A DNA stretch of 24,000 nucleotides from an uncultured Mollicutes bacterium (GTDB lineage: Bacteria; Bacillota_I; Bacilli_A; Acholeplasmatales; Anaeroplasmataceae): the NCBI GenBank assembly GCA_945923475.1, contig CAMELE010000016.1, forward strand, positions 19,170 through 43,169, written 5' to 3'. Within the stretch, counting starts at the first letter, position 1. Each line of letters begins with the position of its first letter. The translations under genes and the position numbers were made by a program. Shown piece after piece: positions 3,847 through 24,000 of the stretch. The notes under the pieces were generated by a model that was given only the letters and a program-made list of their open reading frames with translations, searched no databases and was not told the DNA's origin.

Positions 3847-6582
3847 ATGTTAAGACTTAAAAACATTGTTAAAACTTACGAAGTTGGGGGACAAAATGTT
3901 GATGCATTAAAGGGAGTAAGCATTGCATTTCGTAAAAGTGAGTTTGTATCTATCTTAGGACCATCAGGATGTGGTAAAACAACTACATTAAATATTATTG
4001 GTGGACTAGATAAATATTCAAGTGGGGATTTATTTATTGGAGGAAAGTCAACTAAGGAATTTAATGACCATGATTGGGACGTTTATCGTAATCATCGTAT
4101 CGGGTTTATATTCCAAAGCTATAACTTGATTCCACATCAAACAATATTAGGAAATGTAGAATTAGCTTTAACAATTGCAGGTATTTCAAAGGAAGAACGT
4201 GTAAGAAGAGCTAAAGAGGCTATTGACCGTGTAGGACTTGCTGGACAATACAATAAAAAGCCTAATCAATTATCTGGAGGTCAATGTCAAAGAGTTGCAA
4301 TCGCAAGAGCTCTAGTTAATGAGCCTGAAATTTTACTTGCTGATGAGCCAACAGGTGCACTTGATACTGAAACGTCAGTTCAAATAATGGATTTAATTAA
4401 AGAAATATCTAAGGATAAATTAGTTATTATGGTTACTCATAATCCTGATTTAGCCCAAAAATATTCAACTCGTATAATTAATTTGCTAGATGGTGAACTT
4501 ATATCTGATACTAATCCGTTCACAGAAGAGGAGGAAATCCAGGAAGTAAGCCAAAACATAAGCATAGTACAAGATGAAGAGGTTAAAGAAAAAGCAAAGA
4601 TGTCCTTTGTGACAGCTACAAAGCTATCATTTAGAAATTTATTGTCTAAATTAAAAAGAACTATTATGGTAGTAGTTGCTGGGTCAATTGGTATTATTGG
4701 TGTTGCTACAGTATTATCAGTTTCTCGTGGTGTTAATGATTATATTGATACTATGCAGGATGATATGCTATCAGGAAATCCAATTACAATTGAGGAAACA
4801 GGTATTGACATGAATGCATTAATGAATAGTGCCTCAACCTCTCAACAAATTGAAGCTGTAAAGAATGGTGATTATGTTAATGTTAATTCAATGATTGAAT
4901 ATCTAGTCACTCATAATGATGAGCTTAACTCTTTAGTTTACAAAAATGAGATTACGAAATCTTATATTAACTACATTAAGGCTATGCCTAAGGAATCATA
5001 TTCAGCTATTTCATATAATTATGGTCTTGATTTAACTAATAATGTATATACAGATTTCCATTTAGATAGTCAAGCATCAAAGTATGATAAGATCATGTCT
5101 TTGTCTTCAATAACTGCAATGTATACGAAGCTGCTTGAGGAGACTGATTATGGAAAATATTCATCAATAATCACAAGCTTAACCTCTTGTTTATCTCAAA
5201 GTGTTAGTAATAATGAATATATTAAAACTCAATATGATGTTGTAGCTGGTACACTTCCTCAAAAATATAATGATGTAATTCTTGTATTGGATTCTAAATC
5301 ATCCGCAACTGATTTATTATTAACTCAGATGGGATATTATACTCAAAATGAGTTCTTTGAATTAATCTATAAGGCGCTTGCAGATAACGGTGATAAAGAT
5401 GTTACCTTAACTCCAGCCTTATATAAAAAGCAATTTACATATGACGAAATATTAAAAAAGAAGTTTACTTGGTTTTCTAATGATGTTGTATTTAGTCAAA
5501 ATACAGATTTAACAGCACTGGCATTCCCATATAAGTACAACTATACAAAAAATGATAGCTGGGATACTTTAGAAGAAGGCAAGGATAAGATTGAATTAAA
5601 CATTGTTGGTATTGTTCAACCAAAGGAAAATATTAATTATGGTGCACTAAGAACTGGATTTTTATATACTCAGGATTTATCTGAAAAAATAATTTCTTTA
5701 AATAAAACTTCTAAAATTACAACTGCGATAAAGAATCAGGGAGGAACTAACATTCTTACAATTTGTAATGGCGGTAAATTTATTAGTGGTATAATTTATG
5801 ATTTAGATTATTATTTTAAAAGAGATGACAATACTACTGATCAAACTGCTACAATCCCTGTAGGAACGACGGATGAGTTTTCTAGCTACTTATCAATGTT
5901 TGGGGGTTCATCATCATCATCCTCAACTACTACGGATACTGTTATTTATACAATTACATCAAGAATGTTAGGAGCTGAAGAGTTACCTAGTACTATCTCA
6001 ATTTATCCACTTAACTTTGAAAAAAAGGATTTAGTAACTGATTATCTAGATAAATGGAACAATTTATCACAAGAAATAATAGTTGATGGCGTAATGATGA
6101 CAAATCGTCAAAAGATTAAATATACTGATCAAATTGCAATGATTATTTCAATGATTGATACAATGATTAATGTAGTAACCTGGGCTCTTGTAGCATTTAC
6201 GGCATTATCACTTGTAGTATCAACTGTAATGGTTGGAATTATTACATATGTTTCAGTTGTTGAAAGAACAAAAGAAATTGGTGTTATTCGTTCACTTGGT
6301 GGTAGAAAGAAGGATGTATCACATTTATTTAATGCAGAAACATTTATGATTGGCCTTGCAAGTGGAGTTTTTGGGGTTATAATTACCGGTATTTTGTCAT
6401 TGATTATTAATCTAATCGTTAATTTAGCATCTGATGGTGCAATAAAATCGATGGCGCATTTAACTCCTGTTACTGCAATTGTAATGGTATTGATAAGTGT
6501 AGGTTTAACATTGATTTCAGGATTCTTCCCTTCAAGAAGTGCTGCTAGTCGTAATCCAGTTGATGCTTTAAGAAGTGAATAA
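3847..6582 (+). CDS. fused ABC transporter: N-terminal ATPase, large extracytoplasmic domain, C-terminal FtsX-type permease (MacB-like, 911 aa)
   Basis: Walker A GPSGCGKTT, signature LSGGQCQR, Walker B ILLADEPTGALD, H-loop VTHN. One TM near residue 271-291, then roughly 470 aa predicted outside. FtsX-domain TMs follow, with the RTKEIGVIRSLGGRKKDV motif. Confidence 0.85.
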   Translation: MLRLKNIVKTYEVGGQNVDALKGVSIAFRKSEFVSILGPSGCGKTTTLNIIGGLDKYSSGDLFIGGKSTKEFNDHDWDVYRNHRIGFIFQSYNLIPHQTILGNVELALTIAGISKEERVRRAKEAIDRVGLAGQYNKKPNQLSGGQCQRVAIARALVNEPEILLADEPTGALDTETSVQIMDLIKEISKDKLVIMVTHNPDLAQKYSTRIINLLDGELISDTNPFTEEEEIQEVSQNISIVQDEEVKEKAKMSFVTATKLSFRNLLSKLKRTIMVVVAGSIGIIGVATVLSVSRGVNDYIDTMQDDMLSGNPITIEETGIDMNALMNSASTSQQIEAVKNGDYVNVNSMIEYLVTHNDELNSLVYKNEITKSYINYIKAMPKESYSAISYNYGLDLTNNVYTDFHLDSQASKYDKIMSLSSITAMYTKLLEETDYGKYSSIITSLTSCLSQSVSNNEYIKTQYDVVAGTLPQKYNDVILVLDSKSSATDLLLTQMGYYTQNEFFELIYKALADNGDKDVTLTPALYKKQFTYDEILKKKFTWFSNDVVFSQNTDLTALAFPYKYNYTKNDSWDTLEEGKDKIELNIVGIVQPKENINYGALRTGFLYTQDLSEKIISLNKTSKITTAIKNQGGTNILTICNGGKFISGIIYDLDYYFKRDDNTTDQTATIPVGTTDEFSSYLSMFGGSSSSSSTTTDTVIYTITSRMLGAEELPSTISIYPLNFEKKDLVTDYLDKWNNLSQEIIVDGVMMTNRQKIKYTDQIAMIISMIDTMINVVTWALVAFTALSLVVSTVMVGIITYVSVVERTKEIGVIRSLGGRKKDVSHLFNAETFMIGLASGVFGVIITGILSLIINLIVNLASDGAIKSMAHLTPVTAIVMVLISVGLTLISGFFPSRSAASRNPVDALRSE

Positions 6583-19708: not shown

Positions 19709-20440
19709 ATGAAAGGTAAAATTCATTCATTTGAATCATTCGGTACAGTTGATGGACCAGGGATAAGATATGTTATTTTCTTTAAAGGTTGTCCTTTAAG
19801 ATGTAAATATTGTCATAATCCTGATACCTGGACTCAAGAAGGTGCAGAGGAATGGGAAGCTATAGATATTTTTAATCAGGCCATGAGATACAAAGGCTAT
19901 TGGGGAGATAAAGGTGGAATTACTATTACTGGTGGTGAGCCACTTCTTCAAATGGACTTTGCGATTGAACTTTTAAAGCTATTTCACGATGCAGGAGTCA
20001 GAACAGCTGTAGATACATCTGGATTTATGTTTAATCCTAATAATCCAGAAAATGTTAAAAAGCATGAAGAATTAATAAAATATGCAGATTTATTTTTGCT
20101 CGATATTAAGCACATTGATAGCAAAGGTCATAAAGAATTAACTGGAGTAGATAACACAAATACTTTAGCATTCGCAAAATGGCTATCAGATCACGATAAG
20201 CATATGTGGATTAGACATGTGCTTGTACCAGGAATTACAACAGAAGAGGAAGAACTACAAAAACTAAAGGAATTCCTAAAGGAAATTAAGACTGTAGATA
20301 AGGTTGAGGTGCTACCATATCATACAATGGGTGTTGTAAAATATAAAAATTTAGGAATTCCATATCCTCTTGAGGGTGTAGAGCCTCCTACAAAGGAACA
20401 GGTTTTACACGCTAAAGAAGTATTGAAAGTGGGTGAATAG
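19709..20440 (+). CDS. pflA: pyruvate formate-lyase activating enzyme (radical SAM)
   Basis: GTVDGPGIRYVIFFKGCPLRCKYCHNPDTW (CX3CX2C cluster motif and the glycyl-radical activase N-terminal signature). 243 aa. Confidence 0.92.
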   Translation: MKGKIHSFESFGTVDGPGIRYVIFFKGCPLRCKYCHNPDTWTQEGAEEWEAIDIFNQAMRYKGYWGDKGGITITGGEPLLQMDFAIELLKLFHDAGVRTAVDTSGFMFNPNNPENVKKHEELIKYADLFLLDIKHIDSKGHKELTGVDNTNTLAFAKWLSDHDKHMWIRHVLVPGITTEEEELQKLKEFLKEIKTVDKVEVLPYHTMGVVKYKNLGIPYPLEGVEPPTKEQVLHAKEVLKVGE

Positions 20441-20441
20441 G

Positions 20442-20753
20442 ATGATAACAAAGGATAATTACAAAGAAGAATTAAAAGGAATTTGTGTTATTGAAATATC
20501 TGGTGAATCATGTGCAAATTGCTTATCACTAATGCCTGTGCTTCAAAATATTGTTAGCAAGCGTGAGGATTGTAGATTGGTTCATATTGAAGCATCAGAG
20601 GATACAACGGAATTAATGGAATTATTTGAGGTTTTAACTGCTCCAACTATTTTAGTTACAAAAGATGGAGAAATTAAGGCTCGCTGTAAGGGATATCAAC
20701 CAGAGGAAATTCTTGAATTATGGCTTGATGCAAAAATAAATGAATTAAAGTAA
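20442..20753 (+). CDS. thioredoxin-fold protein with atypical CANC active-site motif
   Basis: About 100 aa. SGESCANCLSLMPVL (CxxC at the expected helix start) and TAPTILV (cis-Pro position). ATG lies 1 nt after the pflA stop; an alternative GTG at 20433 overlaps pflA. Confidence 0.6.
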   Translation: MITKDNYKEELKGICVIEISGESCANCLSLMPVLQNIVSKREDCRLVHIEASEDTTELMELFEVLTAPTILVTKDGEIKARCKGYQPEEILELWLDAKINELK

Positions 20754-20781: not shown

Positions 20782-20810
20782 TTGACAAATATATGTCATT
20801 ATGGAATAAT
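20782..20810 (+). promoter_or_regulatory. strong sigma-A type promoter of pflB
   Basis: TTGACA (20782-20787), 17-bp spacer, AATAAT (20805-20810), with a TGG extension at 20802-20804. Confidence 0.55.
20783..20798. promoter_or_regulatory. operator-like inverted repeat TGACA-N6-TGTCA overlapping the pflB -35 element
   Basis: TGACAAATATATGTCA: perfect 5-bp arms separated by an A/T-only 6-bp spacer. Confidence 0.3.
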
Positions 20811-20896: not shown

Positions 20897-22927
20897 ATGA
20901 ACAAAGCATGGGAAGGTTTCACCCTTGGAAAATGGTCTAATGACGAAATAAATACTCGTGATTTCATCCAAAGAAACTATACTCCATATGAGGGAGACGC
21001 TAGCTTCTTAGCACCTGCAACAGACACTACTAAGAAACTATGGAACGAGGTTCTTGAATTAATGGCTCAAGAACGTGCAAAAGGTGGAGTTCTTGATTGC
21101 GATACTGATATCGTTTCTCAAGTTAATTCACACAATCCTGGTTACATCGATAAGGATCTTGAGAAGATCGTTGGTCTTCAAACAGACAAGCCACTTAAGA
21201 GAGCTTTAATGCCATTTGGTGGAATTAAGATGGCTGAGCAAGCTGCTAGTCAATATGGATACCAAGTAACTGAAAGAATTCATGAAATTTTTACAAAGTA
21301 TCGTAAGACTCATAATGACGGTGTATTCGATTGTTATACTCCTGAAATGAGAGCATGTCGTTCAGCTCATATTTTAACAGGTTTACCTGATACATATGGT
21401 CGTGGACGTATCGTTGGTGATTACCGTCGTGTTGCACTTTATGGTACTACATATTTAATTAAGAAGAAGGAGCAAGATAAGTCACTTATTTGTGGTGAAA
21501 TGACTCCTGATCGAGTAAGAGATCGTGAAGAAATTGCTGAACAAATTAAAGCATTAAAGGCATTAACTGAAATGGCAGCTTCTTATGGTTGCGATATCTC
21601 TCGTCCAGCTGAAAATGCTAAGGAAGCTATTCAATGGTTATACTTTGGATATCTTGGTGCTGTTAAGGACCAAAATGGTGCAGCTATGTCAATCGGACGT
21701 AACTCTACATTCTTAGATATCTATATTGAAAGAGATTTAAAGAAGGGAATCTTAACTGAATCTGAAGCACAAGAATTAATGGATCACTTCATTATGAAGC
21801 TTCGTATGGTTAGATTCGCTCGTATTGAATCATACAATGAATTATTCTCTGGAGACCCAACTTGGGTAACTGAGTCAATTGGTGGTATGGGAACTGATGG
21901 TCGTACATTAGTTACTAAGAACTCATTCCGTGTTCTTCATACTCTTGAAAACCTTGGACCAGCTCCAGAACCAAATCTAACAGTTTTATGGTCTAAGAGA
22001 CTTCCTCTTGGATTCAAGCAATACTGTGCTGATTTATCAATCAAGACTTCATCAATTCAATATGAATCAGATGAATTAATGCGTCCAGAAATGGGCGACG
22101 ATTACTGTATCGCTTGTTGCGTATCTTCAATGAGAGTTGGTAAGGATATGCAATTCTTCGGTGCTCGTGCTAACCTAGCTAAGTGTTTACTATACGCTAT
22201 GAATGGTGGTAAGGATGAGCTTATGAAGGACAAGGTTACTGGTAAGCCAATGCAAGTTGGTCCTGAATATCAACCAATTATAGGTGATGGTCCACTTAAC
22301 TTTGATGAGGTTAAGCATAAATATGAAGTTATGATGGAATGGTTAGCTGACGTTTATGTTAATACATTAAATCTAATTCACTATATGCATGACAAGTATT
22401 CATATGAAGCATTAGAAATGGCTTTACATGATACAAAGGTTGGACGTTTCTTCGCAACAGGTGTTGCTGGACTTTCATGTGCAGTTGACTCATTATCTGC
22501 AATTAAGTATGCTAAGGTAACTCCAATTCGTGATGCAGATGGTCTAATCGTTGATTTCAAGACTGAAGGAGATTTCCCTAAGTATGGTAACAACGATGAT
22601 AGAGTAGATGAAATCGCTGTATGGCTAGTTAAGACATTCATGAATATGATTAAGAAGCACTATACATATCGTGAGTCTATTCCTACAATGTCAATCTTAA
22701 CAATCACTTCTAACGTAGTTTATGGTAAGAAGACTGGTAATACTCCAGATGGACGTAAGGCTGGAGAGCCACTTGCACCAGGTGCAAACCCAATGCATGG
22801 TCGTGATTCTCACGGAGCATTAGCTTCACTAGAATCAGTTGCTAAGCTTCCATATGACTATTCAAGAGATGGTATTTCTAATACATTCTCAATTACACCA
22901 AACTCTCTTGGTAAGGATGAAGACTAA
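20897..22927 (+). CDS. pflB: pyruvate formate-lyase, catalytic large subunit lacking the glycyl-radical domain (676 aa)
   Basis: Collinear with E. coli PflB from WEGFT.G.W...[13 protein letters not shown] through [15 protein letters not shown]. Catalytic Cys pair IACCVS (TGTTGC at 22115-22120). Ends at ...PNSLGKDED, where E. coli continues ...PNALGKDDEVRK. Confidence 0.92.
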
Positions 22928-22946
22928 TTATTAGGAGGATAAGAAA

Positions 22947-23180
22947 ATGTCACAAAAGGTAGATAATCTAGTACAAATGTTAGATACTTATGTATCTGAT
23001 GGTGGATACCATTTAAATGTTAACGTATTCAATCGTGAAACATTATTAGATGCTCAAAAGCACCCTGAGAAGTATCCTCAACTTACAATTCGTGTTTCAG
23101 GATACGCTGTAAACTTCATTAAGTTAACAAAAGAACAACAAGATGATGTTATCAGCCGTACAATTCATGAATCAATGTAA
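22947..23180 (+). CDS. autonomous glycyl-radical subunit (77 aa) corresponding to the PflB C-terminus; GrcA/YfiD-like in concept but shorter
   Basis: [15 protein letters not shown]...[31 protein letters not shown] matches the PflB C-terminal glycyl-radical motif (radical Gly = G52, GGA at 23100-23102). Own AGGAGGA RBS (22933-22939) 7 nt before the ATG. Different reading frame from pflB. Confidence 0.85.
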
Positions 23181-23197
23181 TTAAATTAAATAAATTA

Positions 23198-23225
23198 GGC
23201 ATAGGAGATAATCCTGTGCCTTTTT
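23198..23225 (+). terminator. rho-independent terminator of the pfl operon
   Basis: GGCATAGGA-GATAA-TCCTGTGCC stem-loop (one G.U pair) followed by TTTTT. Confidence 0.7.
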
Positions 23226-23260
23226 AAGTGTGTTTTATTGTCAATTCTGCGGTTAAAAAC

Positions 23261-24000
23261 GAATTTGTAAAAAAGAACTATGAATTTTTTTTAAAGGATA
23301 TATTAATGCACGTAGTTTATATTTTGTTGATAGAAGCGATATAACAAAACAACAAAGTTTGAAAATATGGGATATGTTTTAGATGAGTTTAATGAACATA
23401 AAGTTAGCAAAGGATATCAAATTATTGAAATAGCAACAATAGATAATTCTAATCAACCAATTAGCTTAGTATCAGAATTAAGATCAGCAAATGATAGTGA
23501 ATATAATTCGGATAATGAACTATGGATTAAACATATAAACTATGTAACTAATACATATGGGAAAGTTACTTTTATCATAGATAGAGGATTTGATTGAGCT
23601 ATTTTAATTGGAAAAGTAATAAAAATGGGCTCTGATTTCATAATAAGAGCTAAATGCTTAACAAGAAATGTATATGCAAATGGTGATAAAACTACAATTA
23701 GAAATATAGCATTACATCGTAAAGATTATTATAAGTTTAACTCAAGAGGACAAAATTTAAAGAATGTAGTACAGATAAGAATTAAAACAACAATCATTAA
23801 CACTTATTATAGTAAAAGGGTTTACAATATATAAAAACACTCTAAATGAAGCTTATATGACATTAATTACTAGTAGAGTTGTTAGTGGGGAAAATGATAT
23901 TTTACAGCTTGTTAGAGATTATTTATTAAAATGGAAGATTGAAGAAGACTTTAAATATAAGAAACAACAATTTTTATTAGAAAAGATAATGAAGAATTAA
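23261..24000 (+). pseudogene. 5'-truncated, decayed copy of the IS4-family transposase/IS seen at 800-2276 (continues past the window end)
   Basis: Collinear with nt 1190 onward of the intact copy: 18/24 matches at 23261-23284, unambiguous from 23298. GGA to TGA nonsense at 23598-23600. A deletion of about 20 nt near 23785 shifts the frame, and another deletion lies near 23990. Left IR, promoter and about the first 79 codons are missing. Confidence 0.85.

What the first reader, a model, noticed from the sequence alone, without database searches (positions are those of the whole stretch)
22890..23180. Pyruvate formate-lyase split into a catalytic subunit and a separately translated 77-aa glycyl-radical subunit
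In canonical PflB the radical-bearing glycine (RVSGYAV) sits near the C-terminus of one chain of about 750-760 aa. Here the chain stops at ...[12 protein letters not shown] (TAA 22925-22927), exactly where E. coli reads ...PNALGKDDEVRKTNLAGLMDGYF.

After a 19-nt spacer, a new cistron ([16 protein letters not shown]...) resumes the alignment with essentially no residues lost and carries the glycyl-radical motif. The spacer holds a near-ideal AGGAGGA RBS 7 nt from the ATG. The second cistron is in a different frame, and the pflB frame meets further stops (TAA at 22940-22942 and beyond). A single nonsense mutation or base-call error therefore cannot explain it; it looks like an evolved two-cistron design.

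The only comparable thing I know is the E. coli/T4 'spare part' protein GrcA (YfiD). That protein coexists with a full-length PflB and rescues oxygen-cleaved enzyme. Here the large subunit has no glycyl domain at all, so activity would depend on non-covalent assembly. That could make the radical domain freely accessible to PflA and cheaply replaceable after O2 damage. I do not know of a described obligately two-subunit PFL, but I cannot search the literature or databases from here.
Basis: partly seen in the sequence, partly recalled or inferred. Interest (0 to 1): 0.8.

Follow-up and report, generated by a model that had tools for sequence, protein, structure and literature searches.

The report
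Naturally split two-chain pyruvate formate-lyase
This gut Mollicutes-like bacterium encodes pyruvate formate-lyase as two separately translated proteins, a 676-residue catalytic chain and a 77-residue chain carrying the radical glycine; the same design is conserved in dozens of other anaerobe species, yet I found no paper that describes it.

Summary
The pflB-like ORF stops at 22925-22927. AGGAGGA lies 7 nt before an ATG at 22947, and a 77-aa ORF carries RVSGYAV.

Profile models show an exact cut. The large chain covers TIGR01255 positions 1-664 and the small chain covers 665-744.

It is not a lesion:
- All 120 closest large-chain clusters (82-100% identity) are 672-695 aa.
- 76 of the 80 best species-representative loci are split at the same site, in Mollicutes-like MAGs, Ruminococcus, Lachnospiraceae, Oscillospiraceae and Gastranaerophilales.
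- 75 of 76 have a Shine-Dalgarno motif before the small ORF.
- The small ORF has dN/dS of about 0.04-0.08.
- Spacers vary from overlapping ORFs to 296 nt, in all three frame offsets.

The best reading is a heteromeric PFL whose radical-bearing chain is a separate, replaceable subunit. E. coli work with truncated PFL(1-695) plus YfiD shows that such a complex is fully active once activated.

It is not wholly unnoticed. NCBIfam names the small chain GrcA3, a "spare part". PDB entries 38la and 38lb, absent from a copy ending 8 April 2026, are natural truncated large chains. Ten literature searches found no description.

Not tested: enzyme activity, assembly, and the absence of a full-length paralogue elsewhere in the genome.

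The parts
19709..20440 (+). pflA, the pyruvate formate-lyase activating enzyme (radical SAM, 243 aa)
   Evidence: NCBIfam TIGR02493 PFLA equivalog scores 297 bits against a cut-off of 232. Pfam hits are Radical_SAM and Fer4_12. It sits upstream of pflB in all clade-A split loci.
20433..20753 (+). Thioredoxin-like CxxC protein (106 aa, motif SCANC) between pflA and pflB
   Evidence: Pfam Thioredoxin, E = 4.5e-10. It scores below every NCBIfam thioredoxin cut-off. It is conserved at this position in 15 clade-A split loci and in L081. It was not detected in clade B/C or in the fused relatives L062 and L067. Its role is unknown.
20782..20810 (+). Promoter-like site TTGACA-17-AATAAT with an extended-10 TG, upstream of the large chain
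   Evidence: It matches 11 of 12 consensus positions and is the best site in the scan. This is a consensus match only. The total number of sites is no higher than in shuffled sequence.
20897..22927 (+). PFL large (catalytic) chain, 676 aa. It equals E. coli PflB residues ~9-679, ends ...LGKDED, and carries the Cys-Cys pair (C407/C408, nt 22115-22120).
   Evidence: Pfam PFL-like, E = 2.7e-211. TIGR01255 positions 1-664 of 744 score 1092 bits against a cut-off of 994. It is 64% identical to E. coli PFL. A406-C407-C408-V409-S410 are invariant in 28 relatives. PDB 38la is a natural homologue that ends at the same ...LGKED.
22928..22946 (+). 19-nt intercistronic spacer. It holds the Shine-Dalgarno AGGAGGA (22933-22939) and a second stop in the pflB frame (22940-22942).
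   Evidence: Read directly from the sequence. A Shine-Dalgarno 4-mer lies at -17..-5 in 75 of 76 split loci, against 11.7% of random positions. No promoter- or terminator-like site on the + strand lies in the spacer.
22947..23180 (+). PFL small (glycyl-radical) chain, 77 aa. It has an N-terminal helix, strand beta10, the Gly loop RVSGYAV (Gly52 at 23100-23102) and a C-terminal helix. It equals E. coli PflB ~681-759.
   Evidence: Pfam Gly_radical positions 52-106. TIGR01255 positions 665-744, and NF038360 GrcA3 at 158.3 bits against a cut-off of 158. Residues 17-77 align to PflB 699-759 and to YfiD 67-127. dN/dS is 0.04-0.08. The AlphaFold2 model shows H3-17, H30-38, a hairpin at 47-56 and H62-70.
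23197..23231 (+). Intrinsic-terminator-like hairpin plus T-run, 17 nt after the small ORF
   Evidence: 10-bp stem with 5 G-C pairs, followed by TTTTT. It closes the pflB-small transcription unit.

Best explanation
This is a naturally fissioned pyruvate formate-lyase. The catalytic barrel, with the Cys407/Cys408 pair, is made as a 676-aa chain. The last ~80 residues of a canonical PflB are made as a separate 77-aa chain. Those residues are the helix before beta10, strand beta10, the Gly-radical loop and the C-terminal helix. The small chain has its own ribosome-binding site on the same mRNA.

Shown here:
- The cut is exact and no residues are lost.
- Both cistrons are conserved under purifying selection in many species.
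- The small ORF always has its own Shine-Dalgarno motif and ATG.
- pflA is always adjacent.

Inferred:
- PflA abstracts the Gly52 hydrogen on the small chain, either free or docked.
- The small chain inserts beta10 as the tenth barrel strand and places Gly52 next to Cys408/Cys407, giving an active (large-small)2 enzyme.
- After O2 attack only the 9-kDa chain is cleaved and can be replaced, which spares the 76-kDa chain.
- Extra stand-alone copies of the small-chain gene in some genomes would supply replacements.
For: Exact complementarity. TIGR01255 positions 1-664 and 665-744, and Pfam Gly_radical positions 2-50 and 52-106. E. coli PflB residues 9-678 and 699-759.

Fixation.
- All 120 nearest large-chain clusters are 672-695 aa.
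- Hundreds of 77-aa small-chain clusters exist.
- 76 of the 80 best GTDB loci are split after the conserved ...LGK motif.
- The best proteins spanning the junction are at most 84% identical to the query.

Independent translation.
- A Shine-Dalgarno motif precedes the small ORF in 75 of 76 loci, against 12% at random positions.
- Spacers range from 4-8 nt overlaps to 296 nt, in all three frame offsets.

Selection. Small-ORF dN/dS has a median of 0.075, with dS of about 1 or saturated.

Operon. A promoter-like site lies before pflB and a terminator lies right after the small ORF. pflA is adjacent in every clade.

Catalytic residues. ACCVS and the Gly motif are invariant.

Interchangeable states. 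Fused relatives L062/L067 nest inside clade A and L070 nests inside clade B/C in 100 of 100 NJ bootstraps. Fused and split forms have therefore interconverted while function was kept.

Biochemical precedent. E. coli tPFL(1-695) plus YfiD is as active as wild type once activated (PMC8683613).

Second copy. One MAG contig carries both the operon copy and a stand-alone copy. The proteins are identical and the DNA is 97.8% identical. The stand-alone copy lies next to rubrerythrin and suf genes.
Against: - No activity, assembly or radical data exist for any member.
- In E. coli, tPFL bound YfiD too weakly to measure and gave 32-fold less radical. Non-covalent assembly is therefore not automatic. 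The natural cut lies ~16 residues further upstream, which may or may not compensate.
- I could not scan whole genomes, so a divergent full-length PflB elsewhere is not excluded. L069 has a second pflB-like gene next door.
- NCBI curators classify the small chain as a repair factor ('rad_fix_GrcA3'), not as a subunit.
- The AlphaFold2 models were of low confidence: pLDDT 59 for the large chain and 68 for the small chain.
Confidence: 0.8

Rival explanations
1. Spare part only. The 77-aa protein is a GrcA-type repair factor, as NCBI names it. It rescues an oxygen-cleaved full-length PFL encoded elsewhere. The adjacent truncated pflB is either inactive or is rescued only incidentally.
For: The small chain reaches the NCBIfam 'autonomous glycyl radical cofactor GrcA3' cut-off. 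Stand-alone copies lie next to rubrerythrin/suf genes or next to Crp/Fnr-like regulator genes, which resembles a stress-repair gene. Whole genomes could not be checked for a full-length PflB.
Against: - The truncated large chain is highly conserved, with all catalytic motifs, across 82-100% identity clusters. None of the 120 clusters is full length.
- The cut leaves no overlap. Classical GrcA duplicates PflB 693-759 and adds an unrelated N-terminus.
- The small ORF sits inside the pfl operon in every clade.
- The best junction-spanning proteins reach only 84% identity or less.
Confidence: 0.08
2. Recent lesion or assembly error. A nonsense or frameshift mutation, or a sequencing error, broke a normal pflB in this strain.
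For: None beyond the bare fact of a stop codon.
Against: The same architecture occurs in independent assemblies of dozens of species. Spacers are diverged and each has its own Shine-Dalgarno motif and ATG. dS of about 1 between relatives shows long persistence.
Confidence: 0.01
3. One polypeptide after all. Translational recoding (frameshift, bypass or readthrough) or protein trans-splicing joins the two parts.
For: The window spacer is short (19 nt) and the two ORFs lie head to tail.
Against: - The window spacer has two in-frame stops.
- Across loci the spacer ranges from overlapping ORFs to 296 nt, in all three frame offsets. In about 30 loci it holds a whole extra ORF.
- No recoding signal is conserved, whereas a canonical Shine-Dalgarno motif plus ATG is.
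- No intein or Hint domain was found on either chain.
Confidence: 0.02

Closest known systems
Canonical single-chain pyruvate formate-lyase PflB (E. coli; PDB 1H16/2PFL; NCBIfam TIGR01255) with activase PflA
   Same: 64% identity over the large chain. It has the same PFL-like barrel, Cys-Cys pair, RVSGYAV glycine loop and adjacent pflA. Together the two chains cover the TIGR01255 profile end to end.
   Different: The polypeptide is cut between E. coli residues ~678 and ~681, so the radical glycine and the catalytic cysteines lie on different proteins. Clade A also carries a thioredoxin-like gene between pflA and pflB.
[quoted passage not shown]
   Same: It is a small separate protein whose C-terminal ~61 residues are homologous to PflB 699-759. 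It carries the radical glycine, is activated by PflA and docks into PFL (PMC8683613).
   Different: - GrcA is 127 aa with a disordered, unrelated N-terminal ~60 residues. It coexists with a full-length PflB and duplicates its C-terminus. It is described as a repair part.
- The window protein is 77 aa and starts with the PflB helix upstream of beta10. It scores 97 bits against the GrcA cut-off of 170.
- It follows a pflB that lacks that region.
- Phage homologues in IMG/VR align only from residue 18 onward.
Engineered E. coli tPFL(1-695) + YfiD / truncYfiD(61-127) (Andorfer et al. 2021, PMC8683613)
   Same: A two-chain PFL in which beta10, the Gly loop and the C-terminal helix are supplied in trans. 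Once activated it is as active as wild type.
   Different: It is artificial. The cut is ~16 residues downstream of the natural one. Binding was undetectable by ITC and radical installation fell 32-fold. The natural small chain also keeps the preceding helix.
NCBIfam NF038360 'rad_fix_GrcA3', and PDB 38la/38lb 'Formate acetyltransferase'
   Same: Small chains of all three architectures pass the GrcA3 cut-off, at 158-168 bits. 38la (687 residues including an N-terminal extension of ~20) ends at ...NSLGKED, which is the same natural terminus. 38lb continues ~50 residues past ...ALGK, like the extended architecture.
   Different: These are database objects. I found no accompanying description. The NCBIfam name implies a repair role rather than a subunit role. 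The PDB entries contain no small chain and are absent from a PDB copy ending 2026-04-08.

Membership tests
Pyruvate formate-lyase (formate C-acetyltransferase, TIGR01255 / Pfam PFL-like + Gly_radical) | PFL-like alpha/beta barrel domain scoring above the curated cut-off | tested here: met
   TIGR01255 scores 1092 bits against a cut-off of 994. Pfam PF02901, E = 2.7e-211.
Pyruvate formate-lyase (formate C-acetyltransferase, TIGR01255 / Pfam PFL-like + Gly_radical) | Adjacent catalytic cysteines (E. coli C418/C419) | tested here: met
   A406-C407-C408-V409-S410 are invariant in 28 relatives. The aligned IACCVS is seen.
Pyruvate formate-lyase (formate C-acetyltransferase, TIGR01255 / Pfam PFL-like + Gly_radical) | Radical glycine in the RVSGYAV motif (E. 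coli G734) | tested here: met
   Present as Gly52 of the small chain and aligned to G734. It lies on a different polypeptide from the cysteines.
Pyruvate formate-lyase (formate C-acetyltransferase, TIGR01255 / Pfam PFL-like + Gly_radical) | Single polypeptide of ~750-760 aa containing both the barrel and the Gly loop | tested here: not met
   Two ORFs of 676 and 77 aa are separated by two stops and a frame change.
Pyruvate formate-lyase (formate C-acetyltransferase, TIGR01255 / Pfam PFL-like + Gly_radical) | Cognate radical-SAM activase PflA | tested here: met
   TIGR02493 scores 297 bits against 232, at 19709..20440.
Pyruvate formate-lyase (formate C-acetyltransferase, TIGR01255 / Pfam PFL-like + Gly_radical) | Catalyses pyruvate + CoA -> acetyl-CoA + formate through a glycyl radical | not testable with these tools
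   Needs anaerobic enzymology and EPR.
GrcA/YfiD spare-part protein (TIGR04365, IPR011140) | Score above the GrcA equivalog cut-off; ~127 aa with a disordered N-terminal half | tested here: not met
   97 bits against a cut-off of 170. Only profile positions 61-126 match. The protein is 77 aa.
GrcA/YfiD spare-part protein (TIGR04365, IPR011140) | C-terminal domain homologous to PflB ~693-759, including the radical glycine | tested here: met
   Residues 17-77 align to YfiD 67-127, E = 8e-24.
GrcA/YfiD spare-part protein (TIGR04365, IPR011140) | Redundant with an intact full-length PflB in the same cell | tested here: inconclusive
   The adjacent pflB and all 120 nearest homologue clusters are truncated. 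Whole genomes could not be scanned.
NCBIfam NF038360 GrcA3 | Full-length match to the 78-position model at or above 158 bits | tested here: met
   158.3 bits, residues 2-77 on model positions 3-78. Relatives score 160-168 bits.

The most novel reading that the evidence does not exclude
In large groups of strictly anaerobic gut bacteria (Mollicutes-like/RF39-type MAGs, many Clostridia, Gastranaerophilales) the working PFL may be an obligate (large-small)2 enzyme. Its radical-bearing 9-kDa subunit would be an exchangeable, separately supplied protein cofactor. It would be activated off the enzyme by PflA, discarded after oxygen damage and replaced.

Two accessories would fit this picture. Stand-alone small-chain genes lie next to rubrerythrin/suf genes or Crp/Fnr-like regulator genes. 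In other clades a third, uncharacterised ORF copies the small chain's helix plus beta10 and adds a Cys-rich tail, and it could act as a placeholder or regulator of docking.

If so, 'GrcA' spare parts and PFL subunits would be two ends of one evolutionary continuum, with repeated fission and fusion at a single loop.
Probability: 0.45. Interest if true: 0.8.

Novelty: new variant of a known kind. Interest (0 to 1): 0.68.

Why it matters
PFL is the founding and most widespread glycyl radical enzyme. In the papers I read, including a June 2026 field review (PMC13450708), it is treated as a single chain. Separate Gly-radical proteins appear there only as E. coli and T4 spare parts.

A natural, widely conserved two-chain PFL would matter in four ways:
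- It gives a ready-made system for two open questions: how the activase reaches the buried glycine, and how a Gly-radical domain docks and undocks.
- It suggests how strict anaerobes limit the cost of oxygen damage to a 9-kDa chain.
- It means that 'GrcA' annotations in hundreds of gut genomes describe a subunit, not a repair factor.
- It offers a modular design for engineering oxygen-tolerant or switchable glycyl radical enzymes.

Tried and rejected
- **Representative-library search with the small chain.** The top 150 hits were mostly metagenomic fragments of 80-390 aa. They were useless for counting split against fused forms.
- **AlphaFold2 of the large chain.** A 28-sequence alignment at 82-91% identity gave pLDDT 59, so I drew no structural conclusions from it. 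The Foldseek PDB search with that model returned E. coli PFL but not 38la/38lb. That only shows those entries postdate 2026-04-08.
- **AlphaFold2 of the small chain alone.** pLDDT was 68, with the beta10 segment at low confidence.
- **Complex modelling.** No multimer prediction is available, and a concatenated chain would not test non-covalent docking.
- **Literature.** Ten full-text searches found no description of a natural split PFL. Bowman 2019 and Kammel & Sawers 2022 are not held.
- **Junction-spanning query.** It returned only fragments of fused PFLs at 84% identity or less. This suggests that no close fused relative is on record, but the fragments cannot serve as tree outgroups.
- **Third-ORF family.** No hit in Pfam, NCBIfam or PDB.
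- **Rejected readings.** Assembly error, recoding and intein splicing are dealt with under the rival explanations.
- **Direction of change.** Whether L062/L067 re-fused or kept the ancestral state is unresolved. Their linker has the canonical length, so simple readthrough of a spacer does not explain it.
Full report
**1. The observation**

- A 676-aa ORF (20897..22927) ends ...[12 protein letters not shown], with TAA at 22925-22927.
- The same frame meets TAA again at 22940-22942.
- AGGAGGA (22933-22939) lies 7 nt before the ATG at 22947.
- A 77-aa ORF (22947..23180) lies in the +1 frame and carries RVSGYAV. Gly52 is GGA at 23100-23102.

Three independent profile libraries show that the cut loses nothing.
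- Pfam Gly_radical positions 2-50 are on the large chain and 52-106 on the small chain.
- NCBIfam TIGR01255 (formate C-acetyltransferase, 744 positions) is covered 1-664 by the large chain and 665-744 by the small chain.
- Against E. coli PflB, the large chain aligns to residues 9-678. Small-chain residues 17-77 align to 699-759, so Gly52 corresponds to G734.
- Small-chain residues 7-16 ([10 protein letters not shown]) correspond to E. coli NLAGLMDGYF (684-693).

The natural break therefore falls at about E. coli residues 678-681.

One correction is needed. The large chain still holds the first half of the Pfam Gly_radical domain. What has moved to the small chain is the helix before beta10, strand beta10, the Gly loop and the C-terminal helix.

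**2. Context in the window**

The window has about 31% G+C. Its nearest relatives are MAGs labelled Acholeplasmatales or 'Candidatus Pelethenecus', which NCBI places in Mollicutes incertae sedis.

The gene order is pflA (19709..20440), a thioredoxin-like CxxC gene (20433..20753), the large chain, then the small chain.

The best promoter-like site (TTGACA-17-AATAAT with TG) lies at 20782-20810. A terminator-like hairpin with a T-run lies at 23197-23231, 17 nt after the small ORF. No + strand signal lies in the 19-nt spacer. These are consensus matches only, but they fit a bicistronic pflB-small unit.

**3. It is not a lesion**

- The small chain has hundreds of near-identical 77-aa relatives.
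- The 120 best large-chain clusters (82-100% identity) are all 672-695 aa. None is about 750 aa.
- A scan of one genome per GTDB species gave at least 593 matching stretches. Of the 80 best, 76 have a stop just upstream of the small ORF. Only L024, L062, L067 and L070 are fused.
- By their record titles, the split loci come from MAGs labelled Acholeplasmatales and Anaeroplasmataceae, Christensenellaceae, Ruminococcus (including one cultured isolate, L019), Lachnospiraceae, Oscillospiraceae and Gastranaerophilales.
- The large chains end after the conserved ...LGK motif: at ...LGKD(E)D in the window's clade, and after a further 20-35 residues in clades B and C.
- The intercistronic DNA is unconserved. 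It ranges from 4-8 nt overlaps to 296 nt, in all three frame offsets.
- A Shine-Dalgarno 4-mer lies at -17..-5 of the small-ORF ATG in 75 of 76 loci. A 5-mer lies there in 73 of 76. At random positions in the same loci the rates are 11.7% and 3.6%.
- Small-ORF dN/dS is 0.04-0.08 against the window, with a median of 0.075 over 49 usable pairs. dS is about 0.8-1.1 or saturated.

A sequencing error, a recent nonsense mutation and translational recoding are therefore excluded.

**4. Variation on the theme**

Large-chain phylogeny separates two groups, with 100 of 100 NJ bootstraps.
- **Clade A**, which includes the window. The order is pflA, trx-like, large, small, and the large chain ends ...LGKD(E)D.
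- **Clade B/C.** The order is large, small, pflA. Here the large chain carries a 20-35-aa C-terminal extension (...VFxGDLDxxL...).
  - In type B the extension ends in a Cys-rich motif (GCCE, or CxxxACxIPN).
  - In type C, about 30 loci, it is followed by a third ORF of 55-77 aa.

The N-terminal half of that third ORF is homologous to small-chain residues 3-31, which are the helix plus beta10 (hhalign probability 94.6%, E = 6e-8). The rest is a Cys-rich tail. It has no Pfam, NCBIfam or PDB match.

Fused relatives nest inside both groups. L062 and L067 nest within clade A and L070 within clade B/C, each in 100 of 100 bootstraps. L070 keeps a B-type Cys-containing insertion but is a single chain. 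The junction is therefore an indel-tolerant loop at which fission and fusion have happened more than once. The direction of change is unresolved.

Both states evidently work. That is itself evidence that the split form is a functional PFL.

**5. Extra copies of the small chain**

One 277,587-nt MAG contig labelled Anaeroplasmataceae carries the full operon (L081). About 150 kb away it carries a second, stand-alone small-chain gene (L006). The two encode identical proteins, and the DNA is 97.8% identical. The stand-alone copy lies directly after a rubrerythrin gene (identified by eye from the translation) and putative sufS, sufU and sufB genes.

Other stand-alone copies have no pflB within 4 kb upstream (L032, L045, L046, L079, L080). 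Three of them (L045, L079, L080) lie next to what looks like a Crp/Fnr-type regulator gene. This fits a replaceable-module role. The window itself is too short to show whether this organism has such a copy.

**6. Mechanism**

Shown by the data:
- exact complementarity of the two chains;
- independent translation signals;
- conservation and purifying selection;
- linkage to pflA;
- intact catalytic Cys-Cys and Gly motifs.

Inferred:
- PflA installs the radical on Gly52 of the small chain. records that PFL-AE installs the radical on YfiD and Y06I. From my own knowledge, short RVSGYAV peptides are also PFL-AE substrates.
- Beta10 of the small chain completes the ten-stranded barrel and puts Gly52 beside Cys408/Cys407.
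- O2 then cleaves only the 9-kDa chain.

The nearest experimental precedent is E. coli tPFL(1-695) plus YfiD. Binding was undetectable by ITC and radical installation fell 32-fold. Once activated, however, the complex was as active as wild type (PMC8683613).

The natural cut lies ~16 residues upstream of tPFL's end, so the small chain also keeps the preceding helix. AlphaFold2 predicts this as H3-17. The beta10 segment (20-27) is of low confidence when the chain is modelled alone. Whether the extra helix supplies the missing affinity is untested.

**7. Comparison with what is known**

The enzyme works like PFL plus GrcA, but it is a full member of neither.
- It meets every PFL criterion except 'single polypeptide'.
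- It fails the GrcA equivalog (97 bits against 170) and lacks GrcA's disordered N-terminal half. Within its locus it is not redundant with a full-length PflB.
- Phage homologues in IMG/VR align only from residue 18 onward, like classical GrcA and Y06I.

It is not unknown to databases.
- NCBIfam has a dedicated 78-position model, NF038360 'rad_fix_GrcA3'. The window protein just reaches it (158.3 against 158). Small chains of all architectures pass it at 160-168 bits. The model name implies a repair role.
- The 2026 PDB sequence file holds 38la, with four chains of 687 aa ending ...NSLGKED. It also holds 38lb, 739 aa, which runs ~50 residues past ...ALGK.
- No small chain from those entries is in the file.
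- They are absent from a PDB copy that ends on 8 April 2026.

Someone is therefore studying these large chains.

Ten full-text searches found no description of a natural split PFL. A June 2026 field review (PMC13450708) mentions only YfiD-type spare parts. A 2021 paper states that YfiD and Y06I are the only characterised GrcAs. A 2025 review attributes such proteins to 'some facultative anaerobes'.

**8. Verdict**

- The strong claims, obligate two-chain enzyme and exchangeable radical subunit, are well motivated but untested.
- I rate it a new variant of a known kind, with interest about 0.68.
- The main risk to novelty is an unpublished or very recent structural study behind 38la and 38lb.

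Noticed in passing
window 20433-20753 (+); also L001-L014, L026, L076 and L081 9566-9886: A thioredoxin-like CxxC (SCANC) gene lies between pflA and the large chain. It overlaps the pflA stop by 8 nt. It is conserved at this position in clade-A split loci. It was not detected in clade B/C, in L036 or in the fused relatives L062/L067. It scores below all NCBIfam thioredoxin cut-offs. It might be a redox partner of PflA or of the split enzyme.
   Followed up: partly
L006 4001-4234 and L081 12051-12284 (same 277,587-nt MAG contig): This genome has two small-chain genes encoding identical proteins (97.8% nt identity). One is in the pfl operon. The other stands alone, directly after what looks like a rubrerythrin gene and sufS/sufU/sufB (read by eye from the translations). 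It looks like a true spare copy linked to oxidative-stress genes.
   Followed up: partly
L032, L045, L046, L079, L080 (small ORF at ~3986-4237 in each): These are stand-alone small-chain genes with no pflB within 4 kb upstream, in Gastranaerophilales and Lachnospiraceae MAGs. In L045, L079 and L080 the neighbouring gene looks like a Crp/Fnr-type regulator (judged by eye, not confirmed by a profile search).
   Followed up: no
About 30 loci of clade C, e.g. L021 3717-3950, L019 3730-3960, L054 3665-3874: A third ORF of 55-77 aa lies between the large and small chains. Its N-terminal half is homologous to small-chain residues 3-31, the helix plus beta10 (hhalign 94.6%, E = 6e-8). The rest is a Cys-rich tail (C..C...ACxVPTL or TDCG..GACxQPTE). 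It has no Pfam, NCBIfam or PDB match. Function unknown; it could be a placeholder for the beta10 slot.
   Followed up: partly
Clade B loci, e.g. L033 ~3850-3973, L057, L061, L038, L052, L071: The large chains carry a 20-35-aa C-terminal extension (..VFxGDLDxxL..) that ends in GCCE or CxxxACxIPN motifs. The tail motifs resemble the tail of the third ORF. The fused Treponemataceae protein (L070) has a comparable Cys-containing insertion at the same site. L057's small chain also ends in ...GNSCGC.
   Followed up: no
PDB 38la_A and 38lb_A (sequence file copy of 2026): These are two solved structures of natural truncated PFL large chains, one ending ...NSLGKED and one with a ~50-residue tail. Each has four chains and no small chain on record. 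They are not in the PDB copy ending 2026-04-08. Organism and citation are unknown. The best match among my loci is 82% identity (L017, partial).
   Followed up: partly
L069 2-1669 (- strand): A second pflB-like gene (66% identical to the window large chain, residues 4-567) lies divergently upstream of the split pflB in a 'Ca. Ornithomonoglobus' MAG. Its C-terminus is outside the fetched locus, so split or fused is unknown.
   Followed up: no
L062 and L067 junctions (nt shown): In fused relatives the linker ...SSEED... is encoded by TCCGAGGAGGAC. This is a perfect Shine-Dalgarno-like GAGGAGGA inside the coding sequence at the exact fission site. It could be a pre-adaptation for fission or a remnant of re-fusion.
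   Followed up: no
L102-L132 (IMG/VR contigs of ~104-121 kb, three of ~355 kb): Phage-size contigs carry GrcA/Y06I-type homologues that align only to small-chain residues 18-77 at 73-80% identity. L082-L100 are large 'viral' contigs (up to 333 kb) with the full 77-aa form. One of these (109,813 nt) has the same length as the longest contig on record for a bacterial large-chain cluster, so they may be host DNA or prophage-bearing fragments.
   Followed up: no
window 23367-24000 (+): Three short consecutive ORFs (76, 69 and at least 47 aa) lie downstream of the terminator. The last one weakly matches an IS4-family transposase (NF033590 positions 256-296, E = 3e-4). This is probably a degraded insertion sequence.
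   Followed up: partly
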